From positions 1-64,000 of IMG/VR virus record IMGVR_UViG_3300044960_000113: 64,000 nucleotides of DNA, one strand, 5' to 3'. The DNA is from a virus. Below are positions 4,574-48,224 of the stretch, in pieces. The translations under genes were made by a program, and so were the position numbers. A model generated the notes under the pieces. The model saw only the letters and a list, made by a program, of their open reading frames with translations. It did not search any database and was not told the DNA's origin. Every line of letters begins with the position of its first letter. Positions within the stretch are counted from its first letter, which is position 1.

Positions 4574-4575
4574 TT

Positions 4576-8945: not shown

Positions 8946-8979
8946 GTTATTGTTAAGTTATTAAAAATATATAATATTA

Positions 8980-8987: not shown

Positions 8988-8989
8988 AA

Positions 8990-9033: not shown

Positions 9034-9101
9034 AATTATAAAAACTAAATAAAATTATAATCTTTTATTAATTTACACGTGTATATTAAACTTTGATTGA
9101 A

Positions 9102-9323: not shown

Positions 9324-9427
9324 ATAATTAACTCCTTTTAAAAATATATATTATCAAATATTGATTATTTATGCTAAATTTTAAAATATAAAAATATTAA
9401 TCTAAATTTATATCTTATATATGTATT

Positions 9428-10774: not shown

Positions 10775-10778
10775 TTTA

Positions 10779-33749: not shown

Positions 33750-34607
33750 TTAGTTCCATTCCCAGATAAAACCTCCACCAACATTAATAAATGAATGATC
33801 TGGCTCTGATTTAAAATTATTATTAAAACAATAAAAACCACCACCAACTTCTCTTGGTGCACCTAGTAATGATGTTAATAGATTATTTGAACAATCAAAA
33901 TTACCACCTATTTCTTTTGGTGCACCTTTTAATGAAGTTAATTTATTACTATAACATGTAAAATTGTCACCTACTTCTCTTGGTGCACCTAGTAATGATG
34001 TTAATAGATTATTTGAACAATTAAAATTGCCACTCACTTCTTTTGGTCCACCTTCTAATGATGTTAATTTATTATCTGAACAATTAAAATCACCATCTAT
34101 CTCTTTTGGCGCACCTAGTAATGATGTTAATTTATTATTTGAACAATAAAAATCACCACTTACTTCCATTGGTGCACCTTGTAAAGATGTTAAATCATTA
34201 TATGAACAATTAAAATCATTATTTACTTCTCTTGGTGCACCTTTTAATGATTTTAATTGATTATCATGACAATCAAAATCACCACCAACATATTTTGGCG
34301 CACCTTCTAATGATTTTAAAATATTAAATGAACAATCAAAATTACCACCCACTTCTCTTGGTGCACCTAGTAATGATTTTAATTGACTAAGTGAACAATT
34401 AAAATTACCATCTACTTCACCAAATTGAACTGGTATATATTCTAATTTTTTATTAGAAATATCAACATCTCCATTAACATCAACTATACCATTATCATGA
34501 ATTGTATAATTTTTAATATACATTTCTTTTAACCAATTCTCTATTTCTTGTTTATCGGTTAAAAATTTATGTTGTTCTTCTTTTAAAAATAATTCTTGTA
34601 GTTTCAT
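33750..34607 (-). CDS. LRR-like repeat protein, 9 repeats
   Basis: MKLQELFLKEE N-cap, 21-aa repeats, FKSEPDHSF C-cap. Confidence 0.9.
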   Translation of the reverse strand: MKLQELFLKEEQHKFLTDKQEIENWLKEMYIKNYTIHDNGIVDVNGDVDISNKKLEYIPVQFGEVDGNFNCSLSQLKSLLGAPREVGGNFDCSFNILKSLEGAPKYVGGDFDCHDNQLKSLKGAPREVNNDFNCSYNDLTSLQGAPMEVSGDFYCSNNKLTSLLGAPKEIDGDFNCSDNKLTSLEGGPKEVSGNFNCSNNLLTSLLGAPREVGDNFTCYSNKLTSLKGAPKEIGGNFDCSNNLLTSLLGAPREVGGGFYCFNNNFKSEPDHSFINVGGGFIWEWN

Positions 34608-35137
34608 TTCCAGATAAATTCTCCACCAATATTAATAAATGAATGATTTGGTTCTGATTTAAAATTGTTATTTTTACAAATAAAATTACGACCTACTTCT
34701 TTTGGTGCACCTTGTAATGATGTTAATTGATTATCTGAACAATTAAAATAACCACCCACTTCTCTTGGTCCACCTTGTAAAGATATTAATTGATTATCTG
34801 AACAATCAAAATTACCACCTACTTCTTTTGGTGCACCTTGCAATGATGTTAATTTATTACCATGACAATAAAAACCATCACGAACTGCTCTAGGCGCACC
34901 TTGCAATGATATTAATTGATTATGTGAACATGAAAAATAACCATCTACTTCACCAAATTGAACTCGTAGATATGTTAATCTTTTATTAGAAATACCAACA
35001 TTACCATTAACATCAACTATACCATTATCATGAATAATATAATTTTCAATATATAATTTATTTAACCAATTCTCTATTTCTTGTTTATTAGTTAAGAATT
35101 GTTGTTCTTCTTTTAAAAATAGTTCTTGTAGTTTCAT
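34604..35137 (-). CDS. LRR-like repeat protein, 4 repeats
   Basis: start reassigned to ATG 35137 (ATGA overlap, MKLQEL). Confidence 0.9.
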   Translation of the reverse strand: MKLQELFLKEEQQFLTNKQEIENWLNKLYIENYIIHDNGIVDVNGNVGISNKRLTYLRVQFGEVDGYFSCSHNQLISLQGAPRAVRDGFYCHGNKLTSLQGAPKEVGGNFDCSDNQLISLQGGPREVGGYFNCSDNQLTSLQGAPKEVGRNFICKNNNFKSEPNHSFINIGGEFIWK

Positions 35138-35922
35138 TTCCAAATAAATTTTCCGTTAATATCAATAAATGAATGATCTGGTTCTGATTTAAAATTGTTA
35201 TATTTACAAAAAAAATTACCACCTACTTCTTTTGGTGCACCTTCTAATGATGTTAATTTATTATTTGAACAATCAAAAAAACTACCAACATATATTGGTG
35301 CACCTTTTAATGATGTTAATTTATTATGCGAACAATGAAAACCACCACTAACTTCTCTTGGTCCACCGTGTAATGTTATTAATTCATTATTATTACACAT
35401 GAAATCTCCACCTACTTCTCTTGGTGCGCCTTCTAGTGATGTTAATTTATTTATATGACAATCAAAATTACCACCTACTTCTTTTGGCGCACCTAGTAAT
35501 GATGTTAATAGATTATTAAAACAATAAAAACCAATGTTAATTTCTCTTGGTGCACCTTGTAATGATATTAATTGATTATATGAACAATCAAAAACACCAT
35601 CAACTTCTATTGGTCCACCTTCTAATGATTTTAATTGATTATTATAACACTCAAAATTACCACCTACTTTTCTTGGCGATCCTTTTAATGATGTTAATTT
35701 ATTAAATGAACAATTAAAATAACCATTCACATTACCAAATTGAACTGGTATATATGTTAATTTTTTAAAATGAATATCAACATCTCCATTAACATCAACT
35801 ATACCATTATCATGAATGTTATAGTTTTTAATTTTCATTTTTTTTAACCAATTTTCTATTTCTTGTTTATTGGTTAATAATTTATGTTCTTCTTCTTTTA
35901 AAAATAATTCTTGTAGTTTCAT
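35134..35922 (-). CDS. LRR-like repeat protein, 8 repeats
   Basis: family architecture. Confidence 0.9.
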   Translation of the reverse strand: MKLQELFLKEEEHKLLTNKQEIENWLKKMKIKNYNIHDNGIVDVNGDVDIHFKKLTYIPVQFGNVNGYFNCSFNKLTSLKGSPRKVGGNFECYNNQLKSLEGGPIEVDGVFDCSYNQLISLQGAPREINIGFYCFNNLLTSLLGAPKEVGGNFDCHINKLTSLEGAPREVGGDFMCNNNELITLHGGPREVSGGFHCSHNKLTSLKGAPIYVGSFFDCSNNKLTSLEGAPKEVGGNFFCKYNNFKSEPDHSFIDINGKFIWK

Positions 35923-36833
35923 TTCCAGATAAATTCTCCACTAATATCAATAAATGAATGATCAGGTTCTGATTTAAAATTGTTATATGAACAATTAAAA
36001 TCACCACCCACTTCTTTTGGTGCACCTTCTAATGATACCAATTTATTGCCATAACAATAAAAATTATTACCAACATATTTTGGTCCACCTTTTAATGATG
36101 TTAATTTATTATAATAACAGATAAAATTATCACTTACTTCTCTTGGTGCACCTTCTAATGTTGTTAATTTATTATATGAACAATCAAAAAAGCCACCAAC
36201 TTCTTTTGGTCCACCCTGTAATGATGTTAATTGATTATGTGAACATATAAAATCACTATCTATTTCTCTTGGTGCACCGCGTAATGATGTTAATTGATTA
36301 TATGAACAATTAAAAACACCATCAATTTCTATTGGTCCACCTTCTAATGATTTTAATTGATTATTATAACAATCAAAATTACCACCTACTTTTATTGGCG
36401 ACCCTTTTAATGATGTTAATTTATTAAATGAACAATCAAAATTACCATTTATTTCTCTTGGTGCATCCTGTAATGTTGTTAATTTATTATCTGAACAATT
36501 AAAATTACCACTTACTTCTCTTGGTGCACCTTGTAATGATGTTAATTGATTATTTGAACAATAAAAATCATCACCTACTTCCTTTGGTCCACCTTTTAAT
36601 GACGTTAATTGATTATATGAACAATCAAAAACACCATCTACTTCACCAAATTGAACTGGTATATATTCTAATTTTTTATTAGAAATATTAACATCACCAT
36701 TAACATCAACGATACCATTATCATGAATGGTATAATTTTCATTAATGTTCATCTTTTTTAACCAATTCTCTATTTCTTGTTTATCGGTTAAGAATTGTTG
36801 TTCTTCTTTTAAAAATAGTTCTTGTAGTTTCAT
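35919..36833 (-). CDS. LRR-like repeat protein, 10 repeats
   Basis: family architecture. Confidence 0.9.
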   Translation of the reverse strand: MKLQELFLKEEQQFLTDKQEIENWLKKMNINENYTIHDNGIVDVNGDVNISNKKLEYIPVQFGEVDGVFDCSYNQLTSLKGGPKEVGDDFYCSNNQLTSLQGAPREVSGNFNCSDNKLTTLQDAPREINGNFDCSFNKLTSLKGSPIKVGGNFDCYNNQLKSLEGGPIEIDGVFNCSYNQLTSLRGAPREIDSDFICSHNQLTSLQGGPKEVGGFFDCSYNKLTTLEGAPREVSDNFICYYNKLTSLKGGPKYVGNNFYCYGNKLVSLEGAPKEVGGDFNCSYNNFKSEPDHSFIDISGEFIWK

Positions 36834-37492
36834 TTCCAGATAAAATCTCCCCCAATATTAATAAATGAATGATCAGGTTCTGATTTAAAATTGTTATGTG
36901 AACAATCAAAATCACAACCCACTTCTCTTGGTGCATCTTTTAATGATATCAATTTATTGCTATAACAATAAAAATTACTACCAATATATTTTGGTCCACC
37001 TTGTAATGATGTTAATTGATTATCTGTACAATCAAAAAAACTACCAACATATATTGGTGCACCTTTTAATGATGTTAATTTATTATGCGAACAACGAAAA
37101 CCACCACTAACTTCTCTTGGTCCACCATGTAATGTTATTAATTCATTATTATTACACATGAAATCTCCACCTACTTCTCTTGGTGCGCCTTCTAGTGATG
37201 TTAATTTATTATTAAAACAATAAAAACTAATATTAATTTCTCTTGGTGTACCTTTTAATGATGTTAATTGATTATATGAACAATCAAAAACACCATCTAC
37301 TTCACCAAATTGGACTGGTATATGTGTTAAATTTCTATTAGAAATATTAACATCTCCATTAACATCAACTATACCATTATCATGTATGGTATAATTTTCA
37401 ATTTCCATTTCTTTTAACCAATTCTCAATATCTGATTTATTGGTTAAAAATTTATGTTGTTCTTCTTTTAAAAATAGTTCTTGTAGTTTCAT
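36830..37492 (-). CDS. LRR-like repeat protein, 6 repeats
   Basis: 70-aa N-cap + 6x21 + 24-aa C-cap = 220 aa. Confidence 0.9.
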   Translation of the reverse strand: MKLQELFLKEEQHKFLTNKSDIENWLKEMEIENYTIHDNGIVDVNGDVNISNRNLTHIPVQFGEVDGVFDCSYNQLTSLKGTPREINISFYCFNNKLTSLEGAPREVGGDFMCNNNELITLHGGPREVSGGFRCSHNKLTSLKGAPIYVGSFFDCTDNQLTSLQGGPKYIGSNFYCYSNKLISLKDAPREVGCDFDCSHNNFKSEPDHSFINIGGDFIWK

Positions 37493-38340
37493 TTCCAGAT
37501 AAATTCTCCACCAATATTAATAAATGAATGGTCTGGTTCTGATTTAAAATTGTTATACATACAATAAAAATCACCACCTACTTCTTTTGGTGCACCTTTT
37601 AATGATGTTAATTTATTATTTGAACAATAAAAATCACGACCTACTTCCCTTGGTGCACCTTCTAATGATGTTAATTGATTATCTGAACAATCAAACGTGT
37701 TAGCTACTTCTATTGGTGAACCGTGTAATGATGTTAATTTATTGTTATTACAATAAAAACCACCACCTACTTCCCTTGGTGCACCTTGTAATGATTTTAA
37801 TTGATTATTATGACAATCAAAATAACCATCTACTTCTCTTGGTCCATCTTGTAATGATATTAATTTATTACTATAACAATAAAAATTGCCATTTATTTCT
37901 CTTGGTGCACCTTTCAATGATGTTAATTTATTATTTGAACAATAAAAATCACCACCTACTTCTCTTGGTGCACCTTGTAATAATGTTAATTGATTATCTG
38001 AACAATCAAAATTACCACCTATTTCTCTTGGTGCACTTTCTAATGATGTTAATTTATTGTTATTACAATAAAAACCACCACCTACTTCCCTTGGTGCACC
38101 ATGTAATGATGTTAATTTATTATTTGAGCAACCAAAATTACCATCTACTTCACCAAATTGGATTGGTATATATGTTAATTCTTTAAAAGAAATATTAACA
38201 TCACCATTAACATCAACTATACCATTATCATGAATTGTATAATTTTTAATATACATTTCTTTTAACCAATTCTCTATTTCTTGTTTATCGGTTAAAAATT
38301 TATGTTGTTCTTCTTTTAAAAATAGTTCTTGTAGTTTCAT
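37489..38340 (-). CDS. LRR-like repeat protein, 9 repeats
   Basis: family architecture. Confidence 0.9.
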   Translation of the reverse strand: MKLQELFLKEEQHKFLTDKQEIENWLKEMYIKNYTIHDNGIVDVNGDVNISFKELTYIPIQFGEVDGNFGCSNNKLTSLHGAPREVGGGFYCNNNKLTSLESAPREIGGNFDCSDNQLTLLQGAPREVGGDFYCSNNKLTSLKGAPREINGNFYCYSNKLISLQDGPREVDGYFDCHNNQLKSLQGAPREVGGGFYCNNNKLTSLHGSPIEVANTFDCSDNQLTSLEGAPREVGRDFYCSNNKLTSLKGAPKEVGGDFYCMYNNFKSEPDHSFINIGGEFIWK

Positions 38341-38999
38341 TTCCAGGTAAATTCTCCACCAATATTAATAAATGAATGATCTGGTTCTGATTTAAAATTG
38401 TTATTTTTACAAATAAAATCACGACCTACTTCCATTGGTCCACCTTCTAATGATGTTAATTGATTATTTGAACAATTAAAATAACCACCAACTTTTCTTG
38501 GTCCACCTTCTAATGATGTTAATTGATTATTTGAACAATTAAAATAACCACCAACTTCTCTTGGTCCACCATGTAATGATGTTAATTGATTACGTGAACA
38601 ATAAAAATCACCACCTACTTCTCTTGGTCCACCTTGTAAAGATGTTAATTGATTATCTGAACAATTAAAATAACCACCTACTTCTCTTGGTGCACCTTCT
38701 AATGATGTTAATTTATTGTTATTACAATAAAAACCACCACCTACTTCCCTTGGTGTACCTTTTAATGATGTTAATTGATTATATGAACAATCAAAAATAC
38801 CATCTACTTCACCAAATTGAACTGGTATATATTCTAATTTTTTATTAGAAATATCAACATCTCCATTAACATCAACGATACCATTATCATGAATGGTATA
38901 ATTTTCAATTTCCATTTCTTTTAACCAATTCTCAATATCTGATTTATTGGTTAAAAATTTATGTTGTTCTTCTTTTAAAAATAGTTCTTGTAATTTCAT
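38337..38999 (-). CDS. LRR-like repeat protein, 6 repeats
   Basis: family architecture. Confidence 0.9.
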   Translation of the reverse strand: MKLQELFLKEEQHKFLTNKSDIENWLKEMEIENYTIHDNGIVDVNGDVDISNKKLEYIPVQFGEVDGIFDCSYNQLTSLKGTPREVGGGFYCNNNKLTSLEGAPREVGGYFNCSDNQLTSLQGGPREVGGDFYCSRNQLTSLHGGPREVGGYFNCSNNQLTSLEGGPRKVGGYFNCSNNQLTSLEGGPMEVGRDFICKNNNFKSEPDHSFINIGGEFTWK

Positions 39000-39529
39000 T
39001 TCCAGATAAATTCTCCACCAATATTAATAAATGAATAATCAGGTTCTGATTTAAAATTGTTATTTGAACAATCAAAATCACCACCCACTTCTTTTGGTGA
39101 TCCTTGTAATGATGTTAATTTATTACTATAACAATCAAAATTACCATTTATTTCTCTTGGTGCACCCCGTAATGTTGTTAATTTATTATCTGAACAATCA
39201 AAATTACGACCTACTTCTCTTGGTGCGCCTTGTAAAGATGTTAAATCATTAAATGAACAACTAAAAGTACCACCCACTTCACTTGGCCCACCTTTTAATG
39301 ATGTTAAATTATTATATGAACAGTCAAAATTACCATCTACTTCACCAAATTGAACTGGTATATATGTTAATTTTTTAAAAGAAATATTAACATTACCATT
39401 AACATCAACAATACCATTATCATGAATGGTATAATTTTTAATGTTCATCTTTTTTAACCAATTTTCTATTTCTTGTTTATCTGTTAAGAATTGTTGTTCT
39501 TCTTTTAAAAATAGTTCTTGTAGTTTCAT
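38996..39529 (-). CDS. LRR-like repeat protein, 4 repeats
   Basis: family architecture. Confidence 0.9.
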   Translation of the reverse strand: MKLQELFLKEEQQFLTDKQEIENWLKKMNIKNYTIHDNGIVDVNGNVNISFKKLTYIPVQFGEVDGNFDCSYNNLTSLKGGPSEVGGTFSCSFNDLTSLQGAPREVGRNFDCSDNKLTTLRGAPREINGNFDCYSNKLTSLQGSPKEVGGDFDCSNNNFKSEPDYSFINIGGEFIWK

Positions 39530-40566
39530 TTCCAGATAAAACCTCCCCCAATATTAATAAATGAATGATCAGGTTGTGATTTAAAATTGTTATTTTTACA
39601 AATAAAATCACGACCTACTTCCCTTGGTGCACCATATAATGATGTTAATTGATTATGTGCACAATCAAAATAACCACCAACTTCTCTTGGTCCACCTTCT
39701 AATGATGTTAATTTATTATTTGAACAATTAAAATCACCACCTATTTCTTTTGGTGCACCGTGTAATGATGTTAATTGATTATGATAACAATAAAAACCAT
39801 CACCTACTTCCATTGGCGCACCTTCTAATGATATTAATTTATTACTATAACAATAAAAATTGCCATTTATTTCTCTTGGTGCACCTTTCAATGATGTTAA
39901 TTTATTATTTGAACAATAAAAATCACGACCTACTTCCCTTGGTGCACTTTGTAAAGATGTTAAATAATTATATGAACAATCAAACGTGTTAGCTACTTCT
40001 ATTGGTGAACCGTGTAATGATGTTAATTTATTGTTATTACAATAAAAACCACCACCTACTTCTCTTGGTGCACCTTGTAATGATTTTAATTGATTATTAT
40101 GACAATCAAAATAACCACCTACTTCTTTTGGTCCACCTTCTAATGATGTTAATTGATTACGCGAACAAATAAAATAGCCACCTACTTCCCTTGGTGCACC
40201 TTGTAACGATTTTAATTGGTTATTATGACAATCAAACGTGTTAGCTACTTCTATTGGTGCACCTTCTAATGATGTTAATTTATTGTTATTACAATAAAAA
40301 CCTCCACCTACTTCCCTTGGCGCACCATGTAATGATGTTAATTTATTATCTGAGCAACTAAAATTGCCATCTACTTCACCAAATTGGACTGGTATATATG
40401 TTAATTTTTTAAAAGAAATATTAACATCACCATTAACATCAACAATACCATTATCATGAATAGTATAATTTTTAATGTTCATCTGTTTTAACCAATTCTC
40501 AATATCTGATTTATCGGTTAAAAATTTATGTTGTTCTTCTTTTAAAAATAGTTCTTGTAGTTTCAT
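39526..40566 (-). CDS. LRR-like repeat protein, 12 repeats
   Basis: family architecture. Confidence 0.9.
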   Translation of the reverse strand: MKLQELFLKEEQHKFLTDKSDIENWLKQMNIKNYTIHDNGIVDVNGDVNISFKKLTYIPVQFGEVDGNFSCSDNKLTSLHGAPREVGGGFYCNNNKLTSLEGAPIEVANTFDCHNNQLKSLQGAPREVGGYFICSRNQLTSLEGGPKEVGGYFDCHNNQLKSLQGAPREVGGGFYCNNNKLTSLHGSPIEVANTFDCSYNYLTSLQSAPREVGRDFYCSNNKLTSLKGAPREINGNFYCYSNKLISLEGAPMEVGDGFYCYHNQLTSLHGAPKEIGGDFNCSNNKLTSLEGGPREVGGYFDCAHNQLTSLYGAPREVGRDFICKNNNFKSQPDHSFINIGGGFIWK

Positions 40567-41411
40567 TTCCAGGTAAATTCTCCACCAATATTAATAAATG
40601 AATGATTTGGTTCTGATTTAAAATTGTTATTTTTACAAATAAAATTATGACCTACTTCTTTTGGTGCACCTTGTAATGATGTTAATTGATTATCTGAACA
40701 ATAAAAACTACCACCAACTTCTCTTGGTGCACCATATAATGATGTTAATTGATTATTTGAACAATTAAAATAACCACCAACTTCTCTTGGTCCACCATGT
40801 AATGATGTTAATTGATTACGTGAACAATAAAAATCACCACCTACTTCCCTTGGTCCACCTTGTAAAGATGTTAATTGATTACGTGAACAATAAAAATCAC
40901 CACCTACTTCCCTTGGTCCACCTTGTAAAGATGTTAATTGATTATCTGAACAATCAAAATTACCACCTACTTCTTTTGGTGCACCTTCTAATGATGTTAA
41001 ATCATTATATGAACAATTAAAATCACCATTTATTTCTATTGGTCCACCTTGTAATGATGTTAATTTATTAAACGAACAATCAAAATTACCACCTACTTCT
41101 TTTGGTGCACCTTCTAATGATGTTAATTTATTACCATGACAATAAAAACTATCACGAACTGCTCTAGGCGCACCTTGCAATGATATTAATTGATTATGTG
41201 AACATGAAAAATAACCATCTATTTCACCAAATTGAACTCGTAGATATGTTAATCTTTTATTAGAAATACCAACATTACCATTAACATCAACTATACCATT
41301 ATCATGAATTGTATAATTTTTAATATACATTTCTTTTAACCAATTCTCAATATCTGATTTATCGGTTAAGAATTGTTGTTCTTCTTTTAAAAATAATTCT
41401 TGTAGTTTCAT
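40563..41411 (-). CDS. LRR-like repeat protein, 9 repeats
   Basis: family architecture; contains an exact 63-bp tandem duplication. Confidence 0.9.
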   Translation of the reverse strand: MKLQELFLKEEQQFLTDKSDIENWLKEMYIKNYTIHDNGIVDVNGNVGISNKRLTYLRVQFGEIDGYFSCSHNQLISLQGAPRAVRDSFYCHGNKLTSLEGAPKEVGGNFDCSFNKLTSLQGGPIEINGDFNCSYNDLTSLEGAPKEVGGNFDCSDNQLTSLQGGPREVGGDFYCSRNQLTSLQGGPREVGGDFYCSRNQLTSLHGGPREVGGYFNCSNNQLTSLYGAPREVGGSFYCSDNQLTSLQGAPKEVGHNFICKNNNFKSEPNHSFINIGGEFTWK

Positions 41412-42130
41412 TTCCAGATAAATTCTCCACCAATATTAATAAATGAATGGTCTGGTTCTGATTTAAAATTGTTATTTTTACAAATAAAATCATGACCTAC
41501 TTCTCTTGGTGCACCATATAATGACGTTAATTGATTATCTGAACAATAAAAACCACCAACTTCTTTTGGTCCACCTTCTAATGATGTTAATTGATTATTT
41601 GAACAATTAAAATAACCACCAACTTTTTTTGGTCCACCTTGTAATGATATTAATTTATTACTATAACAATAAAAATTGCCATTTATTTCTCTTGGTGCAC
41701 CTTGTAATGATGTTAATTGATTACGTGAACAATTAAAATAACCACCCACTTCTCTTGGTGCATTCTGTAATGATGTTAATTGATTATCTGAACAATCAAA
41801 ATTACCACCTACTTCTTTTGGTGTACCTTGTAATGATGTTAATTTATTACCATGACAATAAAAACCATCACGAACTGCTCTAGGTGCACCTTGCAATGAT
41901 ATTAATTGATTATGTGAACATGAAAAATAACCATCTACTTCACCAAATTGAACTGGTATATATGTTAATCTTTTATTAGAAATATTAACATTACCATTAA
42001 CATCAACAATACCATTATCATGAATAGTATAATTTTTAATGTTCATCTTTTTTAACCAATTCTCAATATCTGATTTATTGGTTAAAAATTTATGTTGTTC
42101 TTCTTTTAAAAATAGTTCTTGTAGTTTCAT
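41408..42130 (-). CDS. LRR-like repeat protein, 7 repeats (one with a 1-aa deletion)
   Basis: family architecture; EVGGFYC lacks one residue. Confidence 0.9.
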   Translation of the reverse strand: MKLQELFLKEEQHKFLTNKSDIENWLKKMNIKNYTIHDNGIVDVNGNVNISNKRLTYIPVQFGEVDGYFSCSHNQLISLQGAPRAVRDGFYCHGNKLTSLQGTPKEVGGNFDCSDNQLTSLQNAPREVGGYFNCSRNQLTSLQGAPREINGNFYCYSNKLISLQGGPKKVGGYFNCSNNQLTSLEGGPKEVGGFYCSDNQLTSLYGAPREVGHDFICKNNNFKSEPDHSFINIGGEFIWK

Positions 42131-42723
42131 TCCCAGATAAATTCTCCACCAATATTAATAAATGAATGGTCTGGTTCTGATTTAAAATTGTTATTTTTAC
42201 AAATAAAATCACGACCTACTTCTCTTGGTGCATCTTTCAATGATGTTAATTTATTATTTGAACAATTAAAATAACCACCTACTTCTCTTGGTCCACCTTG
42301 TAATGATATTAATTTATTACTATAACAATAAAAATTGCCATTTATTTCTCTTGGTGCACCTTGTAATGATGTTAATTGATTACGTGAACAATTAAAATAA
42401 CCACCCACTTCTCTTGGTCCACCTTCTAATGATTTTAATTGATTATGATAACAATCAAAATTACCACCCACTTCTCTAGGTGCACCTAGTAATGATTTTA
42501 ATTGACTAAGTGAACAATCAAAAAAACCATCTACTTCACCGAATTGAACTGGTATATATGTTAATCTTTTATTAGAAATATTAACATCACCATTAACATC
42601 AACTATACCATTATCATGAATGGTATAATTTTTAATGTTCATCGGTTTTAACCAATTCTCAATATCTGATTTATCGGTTAAGAATTGTTGTTCTTCTTTT
42701 AAAAATAGTTCTTGTAGTTTCAT
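42127..42723 (-). CDS. LRR-like repeat protein, 5 repeats (first of main array)
   Basis: family architecture. Confidence 0.9.
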   Translation of the reverse strand: MKLQELFLKEEQQFLTDKSDIENWLKPMNIKNYTIHDNGIVDVNGDVNISNKRLTYIPVQFGEVDGFFDCSLSQLKSLLGAPREVGGNFDCYHNQLKSLEGGPREVGGYFNCSRNQLTSLQGAPREINGNFYCYSNKLISLQGGPREVGGYFNCSNNKLTSLKDAPREVGRDFICKNNNFKSEPDHSFINIGGEFIWE

Positions 42724-42724
42724 T

Positions 42725-43087
42725 TTAATCTTGTTTTCTTAAAACATATTTAATCCATTCTAATGTATTCATTGAATGACATTGTTGAGGAGTGTCATAT
42801 AATTCAGCAGATGCCATTTGATTATATAACCATTCAGCTAAATTTACTTGATATGATGGATCTAAATCTCTAATAGTTTCAAAAATTTCTTTTGGTGCTG
42901 GATGTTCACGTAGATATCTAACTTTATCTGGTGTCTTATAACGTAACATTTCTACTAAGTTAGCCATTAACACAGTCTGAGCATTATCTGTTATTTTCCC
43001 AGATTTAATGACGTTTTTTAACATCATAAAAATTTCAATAGGAACAAGTCCTTCATTAAGTATTGGTTTAATTTCATTAAGTTTCAT
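42725..43087 (-). CDS. hypothetical protein with CTS-like leader, heads the LRR operon
   Basis: MKLNEIKPILNE|G N-terminus; AAGGA SD. Confidence 0.7.
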   Translation of the reverse strand: MKLNEIKPILNEGLVPIEIFMMLKNVIKSGKITDNAQTVLMANLVEMLRYKTPDKVRYLREHPAPKEIFETIRDLDPSYQVNLAEWLYNQMASAELYDTPQQCHSMNTLEWIKYVLRKQD

Positions 43088-43122
43088 AATAAATTTCCTT
43101 ATAAAATATATATTAAAATTGA

Positions 43123-43138
43123 TATAAATATATTTATA
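43123..43138. promoter_or_regulatory. back-to-back late-promoter motifs TATAAATA/TATTTATA between divergent genes
   Basis: perfect 16-bp palindrome between 43087(-) and 43168(+). Confidence 0.55.
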
Positions 43139-43167
43139 CTAAAAACATAAATGTATGAGGTAATAAA

Positions 43168-43362
43168 ATGATAGTAGACGATGAAATAAAACAAGTTAAT
43201 CCAAGTAAATGGGAATCAATGACGTTTTCAGAATTATTAGAAGAAAAAAATATTCTTATGGATAGATATTATTATGCTTTATCTATAAATGCTAATTATG
43301 CTAAAGCAATTCTTAATGGAATAGATAGAATAAACAGTTATTTAGATAAATTTTCTAAATAA
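43168..43362 (+). CDS. small hypothetical protein
   Basis: GAGGT SD, intergenic position, promoter motif upstream. Confidence 0.7.
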   Translation: MIVDDEIKQVNPSKWESMTFSELLEEKNILMDRYYYALSINANYAKAILNGIDRINSYLDKFSK

Positions 43363-43363
43363 T

Positions 43364-43966
43364 CTATTTTTTATTCATAACAAAATAATCAGAAACTATA
43401 TCACAAAGACCATATTTCTTTGCTTCGTTAGCATTTAACCATCTATCAGATGGTGAAAATAATATATCTTTTATTTGTTTTTCGGTCATTGTAGAATGTT
43501 TTTTAAAATGATCTAAAAATTGTTTTTCTAATCTTTCATGAAAACGTTGAGTTGCTACTAAATCATGATATTTACCATGAATAAAACCATGGAATTGATG
43601 AGCCATAATTTCAGTATTTTTTGTTAATATTCTTTTTCCTTTAGTTCCAGCACTAGTAATTAATAATCCCATTGATGCAACTAAACCAATACCAACTGTT
43701 TGAACATCTAATCTAGACGTTGCCATTGCGTCTATAATACACCAACCATCTGAAACTGTTCCACCAGGACTATTTACAAATAATGTTAAGTCTTGTGAGG
43801 AATCAAAAAGTAAATTCGCCTTAATAATAAATTCAACTGCTGCACAACTTTTATCTTCATCTATTTCACCAAATAACATATGAGATCCTAAAGATCCCAA
43901 ACTTATCATATCAAATGGAAGCGTCTGTTGATCTTGCTGAATTTCAATATGGTTATTTTTTATCAT
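43364..43966 (-). CDS. clpP: ClpP-like serine protease subunit
   Basis: LFVNSPGG, VASMG (Ser), MAHQ (His), DRWLNANEAKKYGLCD (Asp). Confidence 0.92.
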   Translation of the reverse strand: MIKNNHIEIQQDQQTLPFDMISLGSLGSHMLFGEIDEDKSCAAVEFIIKANLLFDSSQDLTLFVNSPGGTVSDGWCIIDAMATSRLDVQTVGIGLVASMGLLITSAGTKGKRILTKNTEIMAHQFHGFIHGKYHDLVATQRFHERLEKQFLDHFKKHSTMTEKQIKDILFSPSDRWLNANEAKKYGLCDIVSDYFVMNKK

Positions 43967-44012
43967 TATTGTTCCTAAAAGAATAAAAATTTTGTTAATA
44001 AATTAATAAATA

Positions 44013-44020
44013 TATAAATA
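44013..44020 (+). promoter_or_regulatory. T4-type late promoter motif TATAAATA upstream of nucleotidyltransferase
   Basis: exact motif 25 nt upstream of ATG 44046. Confidence 0.5.
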
Positions 44021-44045
44021 TAACGTTATTATTATTTATTTAATC

Positions 44046-44819
44046 ATGAAAACTGGATTTAAAGAATTTTTAATTCTAGAATTAGATTATAATAATTTAG
44101 ATACTAAAATTGATTATCATAAAACACTAAATATTAAACTCTGGGATAATCCCGAAAAACCCAGTGATGCTAAACTTAAAAATGATGTAAAATATGCTTT
44201 AAATAATATAGCTAATGAGTTTATAGAATTTTTAGAAATTCCTAAACAAGATGTTAAAGATATTATTATAACTGGTTCTAATGCTAGTTTTAATTATGTA
44301 GAAGGTTTATCTGACATTGATTTACATATAATAGTTGATTTTTCAAAAAATAATATATGCACAGATTGTAAAACAGAGTTTGTTAATTCTTGTTTTCAAG
44401 CTAAAAAATCACTGTGGAATTCAACACATAATATAACAGTAAAAGATCAACCTGTAGAATTATATGTTCAAGATGCAAATGAACCACATATTGCATCTGG
44501 AGTATGGAGTTTAAAACAAGATAACTGGCTTATAGTACCACAATATGTTCATCCAACATATGATACGACAGCAGTTAAAATTAAAGCATCTGAAATTATG
44601 AATCAAATTGATGACTTAATTTCAAGTCAATCTGATGATATAACAAGTTTTGAAAAATTAAAAGAAAAAATACGTACGATGAGGAAGACTGGATTATATT
44701 CTGGTGGTGAATATTCAATAGAAAATTTAGTGTTTAAAACACTCAGAAATAATGGATATTTAGAAAAGCTCTCGTCCTATCTCATTAAGATCAAGGACAA
44801 GAGCTTAAGTTTAGATTAA
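44046..44819 (+). CDS. DNA pol beta-superfamily nucleotidyltransferase with CTS-like leader
   Basis: IITGSNASFNY...SDIDLH, PVELYVQD; N-terminus MKTGFKEFLILE. Confidence 0.8.
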   Translation: MKTGFKEFLILELDYNNLDTKIDYHKTLNIKLWDNPEKPSDAKLKNDVKYALNNIANEFIEFLEIPKQDVKDIIITGSNASFNYVEGLSDIDLHIIVDFSKNNICTDCKTEFVNSCFQAKKSLWNSTHNITVKDQPVELYVQDANEPHIASGVWSLKQDNWLIVPQYVHPTYDTTAVKIKASEIMNQIDDLISSQSDDITSFEKLKEKIRTMRKTGLYSGGEYSIENLVFKTLRNNGYLEKLSSYLIKIKDKSLSLD

Positions 44820-44820
44820 T

Positions 44821-45348
44821 TTATTTTTTTATTGTATTATCAATATCGACAGGTTTTTCTAATTTATCAATAAGTCTATTATATTCTCTCATAATAGCAG
44901 CATCTCTTAAACCAACATATAAAGAACTTACAATAAGAAACGGTATACCCCATTTAAAAAATGCTTCAAATATTGCTAAATATGTAAAAGTATCTATCAT
45001 TTTATCACTAAACCATAAATAATATTTACCTTCTGATATAATTAAAAATCCTAAGAAACTTACCCCAATTCCTATAACACATGCAGCTAATGACATTTGA
45101 TGTAAACTTTCATCTTTTTTTCCAACTTTAAGCATAATAGTATATGCTAACCAATAATAAAAAAATCCCAGTGATAAAAACGCAAAACCTGTTTCAAGTA
45201 AAATAAATCCTTCCCACGTCTTGTGTTTTAATACACAGAATAACAATGAAAGTAATAAAAAAATTAGGAAACAATTAAGAGATATTTCATAAAATACAGA
45301 AATAAATGGATCTTTTCTATATTCATAATAACCATCATAATCAGACAT
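44821..45348 (-). CDS. multi-pass membrane protein
   Basis: four hydrophobic segments; GGAGG SD. Confidence 0.75.
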   Translation of the reverse strand: MSDYDGYYEYRKDPFISVFYEISLNCFLIFLLLSLLFCVLKHKTWEGFILLETGFAFLSLGFFYYWLAYTIMLKVGKKDESLHQMSLAACVIGIGVSFLGFLIISEGKYYLWFSDKMIDTFTYLAIFEAFFKWGIPFLIVSSLYVGLRDAAIMREYNRLIDKLEKPVDIDNTIKK

Positions 45349-45409
45349 ATATTATCCTCCTATTGGTGTGTTGAAAAACGATCTTTACTTAAAAAACTTT
45401 TACATAACA

Positions 45410-46516
45410 TTAAATCTGCTCAAGAGAATATTCATGTAGATAATTTTTTTTAAAAAATGAAACATAATCTATATCTGCTGTTAAATATCTTTTCATTAAT
45501 AAACTGAACATATCTGAATTTTTAAACTTTATCGCAAAATCTTTTCTAGATAAATGTGCATTTTCCTTAAACATTTTTTCAACTGCATCAGATATTTGTA
45601 AAATTTTCATCTTAACATCATGTTCAATTTTATTAATCTTTTCAAGTTGTAAAACATCATCAATCATACTTTTTATATCATCTATTTTTTCATCTAATAC
45701 TAATTCTGCAATATCACGCTCTCGTAAAAATACAATAGTTTTATGTAATTCTAAATACCATTTAGATTTTGCTTTAACCATATTACCATCAGCAAACTGG
45801 AAAATATAGCCTTCGATACCTTCAACAGTTTCAAGATTTTTAACAAGTTCTTGATTAGTCATTTCACTATTGACTTGATCAATAAGCTCAATATTGAACT
45901 TCGAAATTAAGTTATGAACAAATTCTTCTTCTTCGATATCCATACCAGCAAGAAAATACTTGCCAGAATACGTATTACGAACATGAAGAAGTTTCATCTG
46001 TGGTTCAGAACCATAATTTATAACAATTCGTGAGTTTGGCGCAGTATACTCAAAAGTTGGGGTCAGACCTGCTTTAAGTAAACTGTCTGAGAATTGATAA
46101 TAGTTTTTATTAACATCAGCAAACTTGTTAGCAGCTAATGCAACGTCAGACGTAAATGACTTTTTGGACTTAAAACAGACGTTTCCATCGACTAGGACTG
46201 GATGGACCATTGAACCATCTCGTTTGTCTAGAGTAGCTACGATTTTATTCCAATCAAGATTTTCTAAACGAGTTTCTTCACATTCACCAATGTTAAAAAA
46301 TTTATGAAGTGGTCGGCTTACAATATTGCCATTTCTATCAAAAGTAATACCACGACATTCCCGTGCCCACCAAGCATTCTCACCGTGGAATGTATCTTTA
46401 TCTGAAATCATGTAGCAAACGACAGTAAAGCCGTTTTCTTGTTCCATGAATCGAATTTCTTTCATATGACCAACTTTTTCTTTAAGTTGGTCAATATGTT
46501 GTATATATGGAAACAT
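45410..46516 (-). CDS. rnlA: RNA ligase 1 (T4 Rnl1/RnlA-like)
   Basis: RECRGITF, RPLHKFFN, KRDGS (motif I), TFEY, EGYI, KAKSKWY. Confidence 0.9.
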   Translation of the reverse strand: MFPYIQHIDQLKEKVGHMKEIRFMEQENGFTVVCYMISDKDTFHGENAWWARECRGITFDRNGNIVSRPLHKFFNIGECEETRLENLDWNKIVATLDKRDGSMVHPVLVDGNVCFKSKKSFTSDVALAANKFADVNKNYYQFSDSLLKAGLTPTFEYTAPNSRIVINYGSEPQMKLLHVRNTYSGKYFLAGMDIEEEEFVHNLISKFNIELIDQVNSEMTNQELVKNLETVEGIEGYIFQFADGNMVKAKSKWYLELHKTIVFLRERDIAELVLDEKIDDIKSMIDDVLQLEKINKIEHDVKMKILQISDAVEKMFKENAHLSRKDFAIKFKNSDMFSLLMKRYLTADIDYVSFFKKNYLHEYSLEQI

Positions 46517-46544
46517 CAATATTCCTTTATTACTTAACAGGAAT

Positions 46545-46573
46545 ATTATAACACAATTTTAATAATTTGTAAA
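46545..46573 (-). promoter_or_regulatory. sigma70-type (early) promoter for rnlA
   Basis: TTTACA-17 nt-TATAAT with TG extended -10, about 30 nt upstream of SD/ATG. Confidence 0.7.
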
Positions 46574-46580
46574 CTATTGA

Positions 46581-46730
46581 TTATTTGACTAATAGAAAAA
46601 CTATTAATCCTAAATTTATGATATTTAATGTTAAACTTAATAAAATAAGTTTATTTTGTTTTTTATCTACTTTATTAACTAATTCGTCAAATTCTTGACG
46701 TTGAACTGCGTTATTTGATAATACTCTCAT
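46581..46730 (-). CDS. 49-aa protein with C-terminal TM helix (not in ORF track)
   Basis: AAGGA SD; MRVLSNNAVQRQEFDELVNKVDKKQNKLILLSLTLNIINLGLIVFLLVK. Confidence 0.65.
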   Translation of the reverse strand: MRVLSNNAVQRQEFDELVNKVDKKQNKLILLSLTLNIINLGLIVFLLVK

Positions 46731-46782
46731 AGTTTTATTCCTTATATTTTATAAAATTAAAATTTATATTCTTAAAACAGTT

Positions 46783-47388
46783 TCATTCCCAGATAAAACT
46801 TCCACCAATATTAATAAATGAATGGTCTGGTTCTGACTTAAAAAAATTGTTTGAACAGTTAAAATTGCCACTCACTTCTTTTGGCCCATCTTGTAACGAT
46901 GTCAGTTTATTATATGCACAATCAAAATCACCATTTATCTCTTTTGGCACACCTTGTAATGATGTTAATTGATTATTTGAACAATCAAAATCACCATGAA
47001 TTTCTTTTGGTGCACCTTGTAATGATGTTAATTGATTATGATAACAATAAAAACTACCACCAACTTCTCTTGGTCCGCCTTGTAATGATGTTAATTCATT
47101 AAATGAACAATCAAAATCACCACCAACTTCTTTTGGCGCACCTTGTAATGATGTTAATTTATTATTATCATAACAATCAAAATCACCATCTACTTCACCA
47201 AATTGAACTGGTATATGTGTCAAATTGTTATAAGAAATATAAACACTACCACTAACATCAACTACACCATTTTCATGAATGGTATAATTTTTAATTTTCA
47301 TTTCTTTTAACCAATTCTCAATATCTGATTTATCAGTCAAGAATTTATGTTGTTGTTCTTCTTTTAAAAATAGTTCTTGTAATTTCAT
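46783..47388 (-). CDS. LRR-like repeat protein, 5 repeats (second cluster)
   Basis: family architecture. Confidence 0.9.
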   Translation of the reverse strand: MKLQELFLKEEQQHKFLTDKSDIENWLKEMKIKNYTIHENGVVDVSGSVYISYNNLTHIPVQFGEVDGDFDCYDNNKLTSLQGAPKEVGGDFDCSFNELTSLQGGPREVGGSFYCYHNQLTSLQGAPKEIHGDFDCSNNQLTSLQGVPKEINGDFDCAYNKLTSLQDGPKEVSGNFNCSNNFFKSEPDHSFINIGGSFIWE

Positions 47389-48224
47389 TTCCAGATAAAA
47401 TCTCCACCAATATTAATAAATGAATGGTCTGGTTCTGATTTAAAATTATTACGTTTACAGTCAAAATTTCCACCAACTTCTCTTGGTGCATGTTTTAATG
47501 ATGTCAAATTATTATATGAACAAATAAAATCACCACCAACTTCTTCTGGACCACCTAATAATGATTCTAATTTATTTCCTGAGCAATTAAAAATATTACC
47601 AATTTTTTTTGGAGCTCCATTTAACGTTACTAAATCATTATTATAACAATTAAAATTGTTACCTACTTCTTTAGGTCCACCTTCTAATGTTGTTAAATTA
47701 TTATTGTAACAATTAAAACTACCATCTATTTTTAATGGTGATCCTTTTAATGATGTTAATTTGTTTCCATAACACGTAAAATTATTTCCAATTTCTTTTG
47801 GTCCATCTAATAATGATGTTAATTGATTATTTGAACAATCAAAACTACCACCTATTTCTATTGGTGCACCACGTAATGTTGTTAATTCATTATTTGAACA
47901 ATCAAAATATCCATTTATTTCTCTTGGTGCACCTTGTAATGACGTTAATCTATTATATGCACAATAAAAATCACCACCCACTTCTTTTGGTGATCCTCGT
48001 AATGATGTTAACATATTTTCGTAACAATAAAAATTTTCACTTATTGAACCAAATTGTACCGGTATATATGTTAAATTTTTATTAGAAATATCAACAATTC
48101 CATCTACATCAACTATACCATTATTATTAATAGTATAATTTTTTATTCTCATTTCTATTAACCAGTTCTCTATTTTATTTTTATCGGTTAAAAAATTATG
48201 TTCAAATAAGTCACTTAATTTCAT
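47385..48224 (-). CDS. LRR-like repeat protein, 9 repeats, most divergent copy
   Basis: MKLSDLFE leader; same repeats and C-cap. Confidence 0.9.
   Translation of the reverse strand: MKLSDLFEHNFLTDKNKIENWLIEMRIKNYTINNNGIVDVDGIVDISNKNLTYIPVQFGSISENFYCYENMLTSLRGSPKEVGGDFYCAYNRLTSLQGAPREINGYFDCSNNELTTLRGAPIEIGGSFDCSNNQLTSLLDGPKEIGNNFTCYGNKLTSLKGSPLKIDGSFNCYNNNLTTLEGGPKEVGNNFNCYNNDLVTLNGAPKKIGNIFNCSGNKLESLLGGPEEVGGDFICSYNNLTSLKHAPREVGGNFDCKRNNFKSEPDHSFINIGGDFIWK

What the first reader, a model, noticed from the sequence alone, without database searches (positions are those of the whole stretch)
33750..48224. A 14-member repertoire of modular LRR-like proteins with capsid-targeting-like leaders: candidate phage 'variable receptor' / injected effector system
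Seen in the sequence: 14 paralogues share a ~70-aa N-cap and a 24-aa C-cap around 4-12 copies of the 21-aa unit CxxNxLTSLxGAPxEVGGxFx. Repeat counts in transcription order are 5,7,9,12,4,6,9,6,10,8,4,9 (main array) and 9,5 (second cluster). The 12 main-array genes are coupled by ATGA overlaps, and all 14 frames are intact. Established: VGGxFxCxxNxL maps onto the LxxLxLxxNxL core of LRRs (the 21-aa length and xCxxNxL recall IRREKO-class LRRs), whose concave face binds partners. T4 internal proteins carry an N-terminal CTS (MKTYQEFIAE), are cleaved after Glu by the prohead protease and are injected with the DNA; IPI* blocks the GmrSD nuclease. Inference: these are virion-packaged binding proteins with diversified specificity, structurally analogous to lamprey VLRs, possibly acting against variable host defence proteins.
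Basis: partly seen in the sequence, partly recalled or inferred. Interest (0 to 1): 0.93.

Follow-up and report, generated by a model that had tools for sequence, protein, structure and literature searches.

The report
Phage array of variable LRR binders
An uncultured giant T4-related phage carries at least 16 back-to-back genes for small leucine-rich-repeat proteins that keep a fixed scaffold but differ in length and on the predicted binding face, which looks like an inherited panel of binding proteins whose targets, and whether they travel in the virus particle, are still unknown.

Summary
There are 14 intact paralogues on the minus strand. Repeat counts are 5,7,9,12,4,6,9,6,10,8,4,9 and 9,5, and the genes within each cluster (11 + 1 junctions) are joined by ATGA overlaps. 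Two more copies lie outside the window: one is frameshifted and one is cut by the contig end.

AlphaFold gives a confident LRR solenoid (pLDDT 94). The closest solved relatives are Listeria InlJ, a 21-residue cysteine-ladder LRR, and the LRR domains of YopM, SspH and IpaH.

Variation is concentrated at the x positions of the LRR beta-strand motif (pN/pS 1.4, against 0.02 in the core). The same positions vary in four independent phage arrays. Paralogues share out-of-register blocks, so units are exchanged between genes. A related phage has PhoH directly after the gene that precedes the array here, so the array is a lineage-specific insertion or expansion.

The family is large, almost entirely viral and unnamed. 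This scan has already found the same kind of array in several other huge-phage genomes. I found no paper describing it.

The T4-like capsid-targeting, injected-effector reading is neither shown nor excluded. For it: the first 9 residues are predicted flexible, an L-x-E site is present, similar starts occur on other late ORFans, a TATAAATA box heads the operon, and the nearest cultured relative has a gp21-type protease. Against it: some family members have no leader. Display on the virion and action in the cytoplasm remain open.

The parts
43131..43138 (-). TATAAATA box (T4 late-promoter consensus), 43 nt upstream of the first gene of the operon. It is half of a palindromic back-to-back pair at 43123-43138.
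   Evidence: Sense-strand intergenic copies number 38, against 17 expected from shuffles and 14 for the antisense motif. About half of such boxes could be chance.
42725..43087 (-). 120-aa non-LRR gene that heads the operon. It starts M-K-L-N-E-I and ends 1 nt before the first LRR gene.
   Evidence: Its orthologue in a related phage (L002 9974-10393) is followed directly by PhoH, with no array. It has no Pfam or PHROG family.
42127..42723 (-). LRR paralogue 1, 198 aa, 5 units
41408..42130 (-). LRR paralogue 2, 240 aa, 7 units (one unit of 20 aa)
40563..41411 (-). LRR paralogue 3, 282 aa, 9 units
39526..40566 (-). LRR paralogue 4, 346 aa, 12 units
   Evidence: Pfam LRR_4 gives 41.2 bits against a cut-off of 27.
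38996..39529 (-). LRR paralogue 5, 177 aa, 4 units
38337..38999 (-). LRR paralogue 6, 220 aa, 6 units
37489..38340 (-). LRR paralogue 7, 283 aa, 9 units. This is the member that was folded.
   Evidence: AlphaFold2 gives pLDDT 94.2 and pTM 0.87, with residues 1-9 below 50.
36830..37492 (-). LRR paralogue 8, 220 aa, 6 units
35919..36833 (-). LRR paralogue 9, 304 aa, 10 units
35134..35922 (-). LRR paralogue 10, 262 aa, 8 units
34604..35137 (-). LRR paralogue 11, 177 aa, 4 units. The true start is the ATG at 35137, not the listed TTG at 35143.
33750..34607 (-). LRR paralogue 12, 285 aa, 9 units. It is the last gene of the main array and is followed by a 240-nt AT-rich spacer and PhoH.
48221..48430 (-). 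69-aa non-LRR gene whose stop overlaps the start of paralogue 13 (ATGA)
47385..48224 (-). LRR paralogue 13, 279 aa, 9 units. It is the most divergent copy (N-cap 75-82% nt identity to the others) and has a shorter leader.
46783..47388 (-). LRR paralogue 14, 201 aa, 5 units (one unit of 22 aa)

Best explanation
The locus is an inherited ('germline') repertoire of small soluble LRR binding proteins.

Shown here:
- Each gene encodes a flexible leader (residues 1-9 low confidence; 12 residues conserved), a helix-plus-strand N-cap, 4-12 units of a 21-residue cysteine-ladder LRR, and a fixed C-cap.
- The scaffold residues (F, C, N, L, L, P) are essentially invariant.
- The x positions around the beta-strand (LRR positions 1-3, 5, 7, 8, 10) are close to randomised, mostly with NRT codons that give D, Y, N, H, S, G and R.
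- Members therefore offer concave faces that differ in both chemistry and length.
- The repertoire is renewed by gene duplication, by gain and loss of 63-nt units, and by out-of-register exchange of unit blocks between paralogues.

Inferred:
- The twelve main genes form one translationally coupled operon behind a T4-type late promoter box, so all members would be made together.
- They bind variable partners, most probably host proteins or surface structures that differ between strains.

Where they act is not settled. I rate association with the virion at about 0.45, with the conserved N-terminal leader serving as the tag. That splits into loading into the head and injection (about 0.25) and display on the particle near fibres (about 0.2). 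Action only in the infected cytoplasm gets about 0.3. The confidence given here (0.65) is for the general statement, a diversified binder repertoire, and not for any one site of action.
For: - Architecture and counts.
- Fold.
- Homology to InlJ (E 2.5e-24) and to SspH2 and IpaH LRRs.
- Per-position entropy and codons.
- Pooled pN/pS is 1.40 at concave x positions, 0.85 at other non-core positions, 0.02 in the core and 0.51 in the N-cap.
- The same hypervariable positions (2, 4, 5, 21, 7) recur in four independent phage arrays.
- Exact shared blocks of up to 131 nt sit at different repeat registers.
- A frameshifted copy shows turnover.
- The array is absent from the syntenic site of a relative.
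- The close relative L005/L006 has a different set of genes built from related units, with differences mainly at positions 5, 21, 2, 4 and 12.
- Late box.
- No Sec-type hydrophobic N-terminus (sequence).
- The family is almost wholly viral.
- Virion-linked hints: tail-fibre-like genes lie next to arrays in two phages, and leader-like N-termini occur on other late ORFans.
Against: - No binding partner, expression data or virion proteome exists, because the phage is uncultured.
- pS is estimated from few, strongly codon-biased sites. pN/pS above 1 is therefore suggestive rather than proof of positive selection.
- TATAAATA is only about two-fold enriched, so this particular box may be chance.
- Shared blocks could partly be assembly chimeras.
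- Conservation of the leader may reflect gene conversion at the gene junctions rather than selection on a peptide. Its only synonymous changes are CTA/TTA.
Confidence: 0.65

Rival explanations
1. The 10-12 residue leader is a T4-type capsid-targeting sequence. The proteins are loaded onto the prohead core and cut after Glu by a gp21-type protease. They are then injected with the DNA and neutralise variable host defence proteins.
For: - Residues 1-9 are predicted unpacked (pLDDT below 50), yet the leader (codons 1-12) is the least variable part of the cap: pN 0.005 against 0.10 for the rest.
- L-x-E sites lie within the first 10 residues of all copies.
- The start M-K-[LV]-x-E-[LI] also occurs on 6 non-LRR ORFans, against 0 of 716 internal-Met controls. 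With the wider post-hoc pattern M-K-[LVF]-x-[DE]-[LIF], 4 of 7 leader-type genes have a TATAAATA box upstream (Fisher p 0.005).
- Homologous arrays in other phages start with a peptide ending in L-F-E plus a small residue. A second phage shares such starts with 12 of 214 non-LRR ORFs, against 7 of 835 controls.
- The nearest cultured relative, RsoM2USA, has a Peptidase_S77 (gp21-type) protease.
- T4 CTS biology is described in PMC3012670 and PMC5694885.
- The genome is said to carry a T4-like hmC/glucosyl pathway.
Against: - No head genes or protease lie in the 184 kb held.
- Several family members start directly at the cap helix with no leader.
- Similar N-termini sit on a HAD-like enzyme and, in the K-T-F-K-Q-F-I type, a Nudix-like one, which are unlikely cargo.
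- The members are acidic to neutral, 20-38 kDa, curved solenoids. T4's internal protein IPI* is small and compact.
- Leader identity could simply be concerted evolution of the gene junction.
Confidence: 0.25
2. The proteins are displayed on the outside of the particle as adhesins. They would be docked through the constant N- or C-terminal module to fibres, baseplate or capsid. Each virion would then carry a mixed set of receptor-binding heads that widens host range or adhesion.
For: - A late-type promoter box heads the operon.
- A tail-fibre-like gene lies 1.1 kb downstream, at 31356-32645.
- In phage G001 the two LRR arrays flank a tail-spike-like gene, and one leader-bearing non-LRR protein hits a tail-fibre family.
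- The closest solved relative, InlJ, is an adhesin (title of Sabet et al. 2008, as listed in PMC7291126).
- LRR or beta-helix heads on fibre-cloud proteins have been proposed for phage Goslar (10.64898/2026.04.21.720040).
Against: - No recognisable virion-anchoring or trimerisation domain is present.
- The caps look like ordinary LRR capping elements in the model.
- Sixteen or more monomeric heads competing for one site has no documented precedent.
- The neighbouring genes PhoH, ClpP and RNA ligase are not structural.
Confidence: 0.2
3. The proteins stay in the infected cell's cytoplasm and are not packaged. There they bind host or phage proteins, for example to block defence or abortive-infection sensors, or to act as adaptors that hand targets to a protease such as the neighbouring ClpP homologue.
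For: - There is no signal peptide.
- The LRR class is shared with the cytoplasm-acting effectors YopM, SspH and IpaH.
- An intact ClpP homologue lies 640 nt upstream.
- The array sits among replication and nucleotide-metabolism genes.
- The single homologue in Vibrio phage SRILMA lies next to the DnaB helicase gene.
Against: - A late-only operon would come too late to counter first-line defences.
- The ClpP gene is not conserved next to the syntenic site in the relative L002.
- This model does not explain the conserved flexible leader.
Confidence: 0.3
4. There is no binding function. The array is neutrally expanding repetitive DNA, or it is largely an artefact of metagenome assembly.
For: - Exact blocks of up to 131 nt are shared between paralogues.
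- The contig ends inside a copy, and one copy is frameshifted.
Against: - Fourteen intact frames with perfect ATGA junctions.
- Core positions have pN/pS of 0.02 with synonymous variation present.
- The fold is confident.
- Thousands of homologues and comparable arrays occur in independent phages.
- A relative's LRR genes assemble identically from two samples.
Confidence: 0.04

Closest known systems
Listeria monocytogenes internalin J (PDB 3bz5), the 21-residue 'cysteine ladder' LRR (Bublitz et al. 2008, J Mol Biol 378:87, as cited in PMC7291126)
   Same: - The period is 21 residues.
- Cys replaces the hydrophobic residue at LRR position 6 in every unit.
- The N-x-L-T-x-L segment is shared.
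- It is the best sequence match among solved structures (profile E 2.5e-24, single sequence 4.7e-19).
   Different: - InlJ is a secreted, LPXTG-anchored bacterial surface protein with an internalin N-cap and inter-repeat domain.
- The phage proteins have no signal or anchor and carry their own caps.
- Their variable segment is G-A-P-x-E-V-G-G, with Gly at positions 1 and 16, in place of InlJ's D-V-S-x-N-x-x-L-T.
- They occur as a tandem multigene array.
LRR domains of type III effectors YopM, SspH1/SspH2, IpaH and SlrP ('bacterial' 20-22 residue LRR class)
   Same: - These are the top structural matches (4ow2, 3g06, 4nkg, 7wjq) and the second-best sequence matches.
- The unit is short, with a Pro at position 18.
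- They are cytoplasm-acting, concave-face protein binders delivered from outside the target cell.
   Different: - The effectors are single genes.
- They are often fused to an E3 ligase domain and are secreted through an injectisome.
- They have no cysteine ladder.
- They are not arranged as arrays of variable length.
T-even phage internal proteins (IPI, IPII, IPIII and the polymorphic IP locus) with the capsid-targeting sequence
   Same: - Both are sets of diverse, fast-evolving accessory proteins in a T4-related phage that share a short N-terminal peptide containing an (L/I)-x-E site.
- A late promoter box lies upstream.
- Both sit at hyperplastic locations (PMC3012670, PMC5694885).
   Different: - IPs are unrelated to each other apart from the tag, and they are not LRRs.
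- For this locus, packaging, cleavage and injection are untested.
- The leader matches the T4 one at only about 4 of 10 positions.
Lamprey/hagfish variable lymphocyte receptors and plant NLR/RLP clusters
   Same: - All are LRR scaffolds with a variable number of units and diversity focused on the xxLxLxx face.
- Diversity is generated by exchange of LRR cassettes or by unequal crossing-over in tandem clusters.
- Hagfish VLR 2o6q is among the fold hits.
   Different: - VLR diversity is somatic and driven by a deaminase. Here it is germline, across paralogues.
- The phage proteins have no disulfide-bonded LRRNT or LRRCT caps.
- The host is a virus of bacteria.
Lineage-specific expansions of repeat proteins in giant eukaryotic viruses (LRR, FNIP/FGxxFN, ankyrin)
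   Same: - Many LRR paralogues occur per genome.
- BFVD fold hits are mostly LRR proteins of Mimivirus, Marseillevirus and Klosneuvirus. One is a dUTPase-LRR fusion with 41% identity over 176 columns.
- CroV FNIP-type LRR structures are described in PMC9525666.
   Different: - Those viruses infect eukaryotes.
- Their genes are usually dispersed or fused to F-box or other domains.
- Here the arrangement is a polycistronic, translationally coupled bacterial-type operon.

Membership tests
Leucine-rich repeat superfamily | Tandem units carrying the LxxLxLxxN/CxL core | tested here: met
   There are 103 units. F, C, N, L and L at LRR positions 4, 6, 9, 11 and 14 are invariant or nearly so. Pfam LRR_4 is above its cut-off for paralogue 4 (41.2 against 27 bits), below it for paralogue 13, and absent for paralogue 12.
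Leucine-rich repeat superfamily | Curved solenoid with a parallel beta-sheet | tested here: met
   AlphaFold2 gives pLDDT 94.2, with two short strands per unit. Foldseek probability is 1.00 to YopM, SDS22, SspH2 and IpaH.
InlJ-type cysteine-ladder LRR | 21-residue period with Cys at position 6 of every unit, and sequence similarity to InlJ | tested here: met
   Cys is present in 101 of 101 standard units. The match to 3bz5 has E 2.5e-24, with Cys and Asn aligned in register.
Internalin family (as a protein family, not only the repeat type) | Signal peptide, internalin N-cap, inter-repeat Ig-like domain, cell-wall anchor | tested here: not met
   The N-terminus is charged and has no hydrophobic stretch. 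The protein ends 26-28 residues after the last unit, with no LPXTG.
IRREKO@LRR (Matsushima et al. 2010, PMC2946307) | Nested 10/11 periodicity, with hydrophobic residues at positions 1/11, 4/14 and 6/16 | tested here: not met
   Positions 1 and 16 are Gly in most units. Only the 21-residue length and Cys6 fit (against the consensus read).
T4-type internal proteins with capsid-targeting sequence | A short N-terminal propeptide shared by otherwise unrelated proteins | tested here: inconclusive
   The M-K-[LV]-x-E-[LI] start occurs on 6 non-LRR ORFans, against 0 of 716 internal controls. It is also on a HAD-like enzyme, and some LRR relatives lack a leader.
T4-type internal proteins with capsid-targeting sequence | A gp21-type (Peptidase_S77) prohead protease in the genome and an (L/I)-x-E cleavage site | tested here: inconclusive
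   L-x-E is present in all leaders. No S77 match lies in the 184 kb held, which is about half the genome. S77 is present in the nearest cultured relative, RsoM2USA (E 2.5e-30).
T4-type internal proteins with capsid-targeting sequence | Presence in virions in processed form, and injection | not testable with these tools
   The phage is uncultured and no proteome is available.
Diversity-generating retroelement targets | A reverse transcriptase plus a template/variable repeat pair, with adenine-specific changes | tested here: not met
   No RVT_1 match lies in the 184 kb. Variation is spread over many paralogues rather than one VR/TR pair.
Variable lymphocyte receptors | Somatic assembly from flanking cassettes, with LRRNT and LRRCT disulfide caps | tested here: not met
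   All genes are complete germline ORFs. The caps contain no Cys clusters. The resemblance lies in architecture only.

The most novel reading that the evidence does not exclude
Giant T4-related phages use a short N-terminal tag of the T4 capsid-targeting type to load a whole class of late, fast-evolving proteins into the head. That class would include a recombining library of 16 or more LRR binders. The mixture would be injected with the DNA as a pre-made, antibody-like arsenal, from which whichever member fits the local host's defence protein disarms it.
Probability: 0.2. Interest if true: 0.9.

Novelty: new variant of a known kind. Interest (0 to 1): 0.6.

Why it matters
If these are diversified binders, phages hold a natural library of small, cysteine-ladder LRR scaffolds. 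Variation is confined to about seven positions per 21-residue unit, and the number of units is adjustable.

This matters in two ways. First, it would be a new layer of the phage-host arms race, because nothing is known about what such arrays bind. Second, it would be a ready-made scaffold for engineered binders.

The family is very large: 7,472 of the 8,000 candidates scored passed E 1e-5 in one capped search, and its clusters are almost entirely viral. It is still annotated only as 'hypothetical protein', so assigning even one target would annotate thousands of genes.

The leader question is directly testable. It bears on how far T4's protein-packaging signal extends across giant phages.

Tried and rejected
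- **DGR mutagenesis.** I considered this because the variable codons are NRT. I rejected it because the 184 kb holds no reverse transcriptase.
- **IRREKO membership.** Rejected on positions 1 and 16.
- **Intrinsic terminators inside the array.** The hits from the scan are the 6-bp inverted repeat that encodes G-A-P-x-E-V-G-G in every unit, not terminators.
- **Plus-strand ORFs over the array.** These are antisense artefacts.
- **Head genes.** Searches for gp23 and gp21 families in the genome found nothing, and nothing rang in the bacterial control genomes either. The negative therefore says only that the held half shows none.
- **Close relatives.** Megablast of the array against 50,697 phage records gave no match. 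An exact-pattern scan for the gene junction found only one related phage in IMG/VR (two contigs identical over their 10-kb overlap) and nothing in the metagenome contigs.
- **Domain fusions.** Pfam scans of fused relatives gave no informative partner domain.
- **Names for homologues.** A cluster look-up of NCBI-sourced homologues returned no names.
- **Late box in a second phage.** The TATAAATA test does not transfer to phage G001, which hardly uses that box.
- **Literature.** Searches for LRR arrays in jumbo, huge or mega-phages found nothing relevant.
- **Complex prediction.** Not used, because no specific partner could be justified.

Full report
**Observation**

One search lists fourteen minus-strand ORFs with the same start and end motifs: twelve contiguous at 33750-42723 and two at 46783-48224.

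A script shows a strict 21-residue period. Each ORF has one stop. All eleven junctions in the main array and the one in the second cluster are ATGA overlaps. The listed TTG start of the eleventh gene is spurious, and the ATG at 35137 restores the ATGA overlap.

The window is the first 64 kb of a 184,280-bp IMG/VR virus record that CheckV rates 52% complete. Two further copies lie outside the window. One, at 138956-139592, is frameshifted inside a repeat. The other, at 183680-184279, is cut by the contig end. The repertoire is therefore at least 16 genes.

**What phage this is**

GC content is about 25%. The window encodes a T4-type DNA polymerase, DnaB, topoisomerase II subunits, PhoH, Rnl1-type RNA ligase and a ClpP homologue.

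By polymerase, the nearest cultured relatives are Ralstonia phage RsoM2USA (48.7% identity; 344 kb), Xanthomonas phage XacN1 and other 310-385 kb myoviruses. This fits a genome of roughly 350 kb.

**Fold and class**

AlphaFold2 on paralogue 7, with a 20-sequence alignment, gives pLDDT 94.2 and pTM 0.87. The model has two short strands per unit. Only residues 1-9 fall below pLDDT 50.

Foldseek finds YopM, SDS22, SspH2, IpaH and a hagfish VLR. In the viral library it finds LRR proteins of giant viruses and of uncultured Caudovirales. A sequence profile finds Listeria InlJ first (3bz5, E 2.5e-24), then SspH2, SspH1 and IpaH. The alignment keeps Cys and Asn in register over many units.

The repeat is thus an InlJ-like cysteine-ladder LRR with a short 'bacterial'-type variable segment.

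It is not IRREKO. That class needs hydrophobic residues at positions 1 and 16 (PMC2946307), and here both are Gly.

**Where the variation lies**

F, C, L, L and P are invariant in 101 standard units, and N is present in 99 of 101. The highest entropies are at my unit positions 5, 21, 12, 2, 7 and 4, followed by 19 and 20.

In LRR numbering these are positions 8, 3, 15, 5, 10, 7, 1 and 2. Apart from position 15, they are the solvent-facing x residues of the strand and its flanks.

The codons there are mostly NRT, giving D, Y, N, H, S, G and R.

Pooled pN/pS values:

| Region | pN/pS |
|---|---|
| Concave x positions | 1.40 |
| Other non-core positions | 0.85 |
| Core | 0.02 |
| N-cap | 0.51 |

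Four independent arrays from other phages show the same hypervariable positions: 2, 4, 5, 21 and 7. Because synonymous sites are few and codon-biased, I read this as consistent with diversifying selection, not as proof.

**How the repertoire changes**

Paralogue pairs share exact blocks of 83-131 nt at different repeat registers, for example residue 102 of gene 1 with residue 124 of gene 2. N-caps are 85-95% identical in nucleotides, and 75-82% for gene 13.

Unit exchange, gain and loss of units, and one frameshifted copy all point to unequal recombination. The same blocks mean that a short-read assembler could have mis-joined units, and in-frame chimeras would go unnoticed.

**Surroundings**

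The operon begins with a 120-aa non-LRR gene at 42725-43087, which ends 1 nt before gene 1. Its orthologue in a related phage, L002, is followed directly by PhoH. The twelve genes are therefore an insertion or expansion at a plastic site.

Only one close relative was found, as two contigs that are 100% identical over 10 kb. It has the same leader and caps, but three genes at other positions built from related and differently ordered units. Differences fall mainly at positions 5, 21, 2, 4 and 12.

That condition is not met.

**Distribution**

One search returned 7,472 proteins at E below 1e-5 out of 8,000 scored candidates. All are 'hypothetical'. The nearest ESM Atlas clusters are 98-100% viral.

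Arrays of 2-7 genes with variable unit number occur on other large phage contigs (L007-L010). The 735-kb phage LR756501 has four tandem genes plus a 1,032-residue open frame (a single long protein, if one gene) that starts with the LRR module. Vibrio phage SRILMA has a single copy next to DnaB.

Earlier notes of this scan report the same kind of array in several other huge-phage genomes. This is therefore a repeat sighting on new DNA.

I found no paper on such arrays.

**Timing**

A TATAAATA box lies 43 nt upstream of the first gene. It is part of a palindromic pair that also faces a plus-strand ORF with a good ribosome-binding site.

Genome-wide, the box is enriched in intergenic DNA on the sense strand: 38 copies, against 17 expected and 14 antisense. 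It precedes genes with tail- or virion-like PHROG hits.

Late transcription is therefore likely but not shown. No real terminator lies inside the array.

**The leader**

Points in favour of a tag:
- Residues 1-9 are predicted flexible, yet the leader (codons 1-12) is the least variable part of the cap.
- All copies hold L-x-E within ten residues.
- The same kind of start occurs on six non-LRR ORFans, against 0 of 716 internal-Met controls. With a slightly wider post-hoc pattern, four of seven leader-type genes have a late box (Fisher p 0.005). None of the five checked matches a PHROG family.
- Relatives elsewhere often begin with a peptide ending in L-F-E plus a small residue.
- In a second phage, G001, such starts are shared with 12 of 214 non-LRR ORFs, against 7 of 835 controls.
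- RsoM2USA has a gp21-type protease.
- T4 propeptides of 10-20 residues, cut after Glu, target proteins to the prohead core (PMC3012670, PMC5694885).

Points against:
- Several relatives have no leader.
- A HAD-like enzyme carries a similar start, and a Nudix-like one carries a related K-T-F-K-Q-F-I-type start.
- The only synonymous changes in the leader are CTA/TTA, so its identity may come from gene conversion at the junctions.
- No head module lies in the sequence held.

**Alternative sites of action**

- *Display on the virion.* Tail-fibre-like or tail-spike-like genes lie beside arrays in this phage and in G001. InlJ is an adhesin. Both keep this option open.
- *Cytoplasmic role.* The proteins have no signal peptide, their LRR class is shared with type III effectors, and an intact ClpP homologue lies nearby. 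These keep a cytoplasmic role open as well.

**Verdict**

This is a real, diversified LRR binder repertoire in a giant T4-related phage. The architecture and the pattern of variation are established. The partner, the timing and the location of action are inferred. The injected-effector model is a reasonable minority hypothesis, at about 0.25.

Noticed in passing
window 43123-43138: A palindromic pair of TATAAATA boxes sits back to back between a plus-strand 64-aa ORF (43168-43362, with a GAGG ribosome site) and the 120-aa gene that heads the LRR operon. It looks like a divergent late promoter.
   Followed up: partly
window 42725-43087 and 55366-56304; genome 113360-113884, 136613-137290, 140061-140552, 140572-140988, 142172-142678: Unrelated small proteins, five of them checked and without any PHROG family, share an N-terminus of the type M-K-(L/V/F)-x-(E/D)-(L/I/F). 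Four of seven have a TATAAATA box upstream. They may form a leader-tagged class of late proteins.
   Followed up: partly
genome 139646-140059 and 142692-142964 (outside the window): Two proteins start with K-T-F-K-Q-F-I-x-E, which is closer to the T4 internal-protein leader than the LRR leader is. One looks Nudix-like by eye. The relative L006 has two more such starts (11371-12345 and 10610-11341).
   Followed up: no
window 43364-43966 (-): A ClpP homologue of 200 aa has Ser, His and Asp aligned to bacterial ClpP (E 4e-23 to solved ClpP). It sits among non-structural genes and is absent from the syntenic region of the relative L002.
   Followed up: partly
window 48442-49128 (-): A 228-aa protein carries seven tandem K-P-E-E-N repeats after a beta-rich N-terminal part. 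It lies just upstream of the second LRR cluster, has a TATAAATA box upstream, and matches no family.
   Followed up: no
genome 138956-139592 and 183680-184279 (outside the window): The fifteenth LRR copy is frameshifted inside a repeat. The record ends inside a sixteenth copy, which suggests the assembly broke on this repeat family.
   Followed up: yes
every 63-nt unit, e.g. window 33842-33859, 40712-40729, 42465-42482: The codons for G-A-P-x-E-V-G-G form a 6-bp inverted repeat (CACCAA, 6 nt, TTGGTG). The terminator scan flags it. Whether it promotes slippage or exchange is unknown.
   Followed up: no
L023 (G001:C1) 1-9809: A second phage (180-kb contig, GC 38%) has seven LRR genes plus one cut by the contig start. 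They form two ATGA-coupled arrays that flank a 684-aa tail-spike-like gene, and they carry a helical C-terminal domain different from the C-cap seen here.
   Followed up: partly
window 3027-3548 (-) and genome 91005-94031 (+): Two genes share the start M-L-I-D-G-(I/V)-N-L. Both have weak hits to minor-tail or virion structural families, and both have a TATAAATA box upstream. They are probably fibre genes scattered among replication genes.
   Followed up: partly
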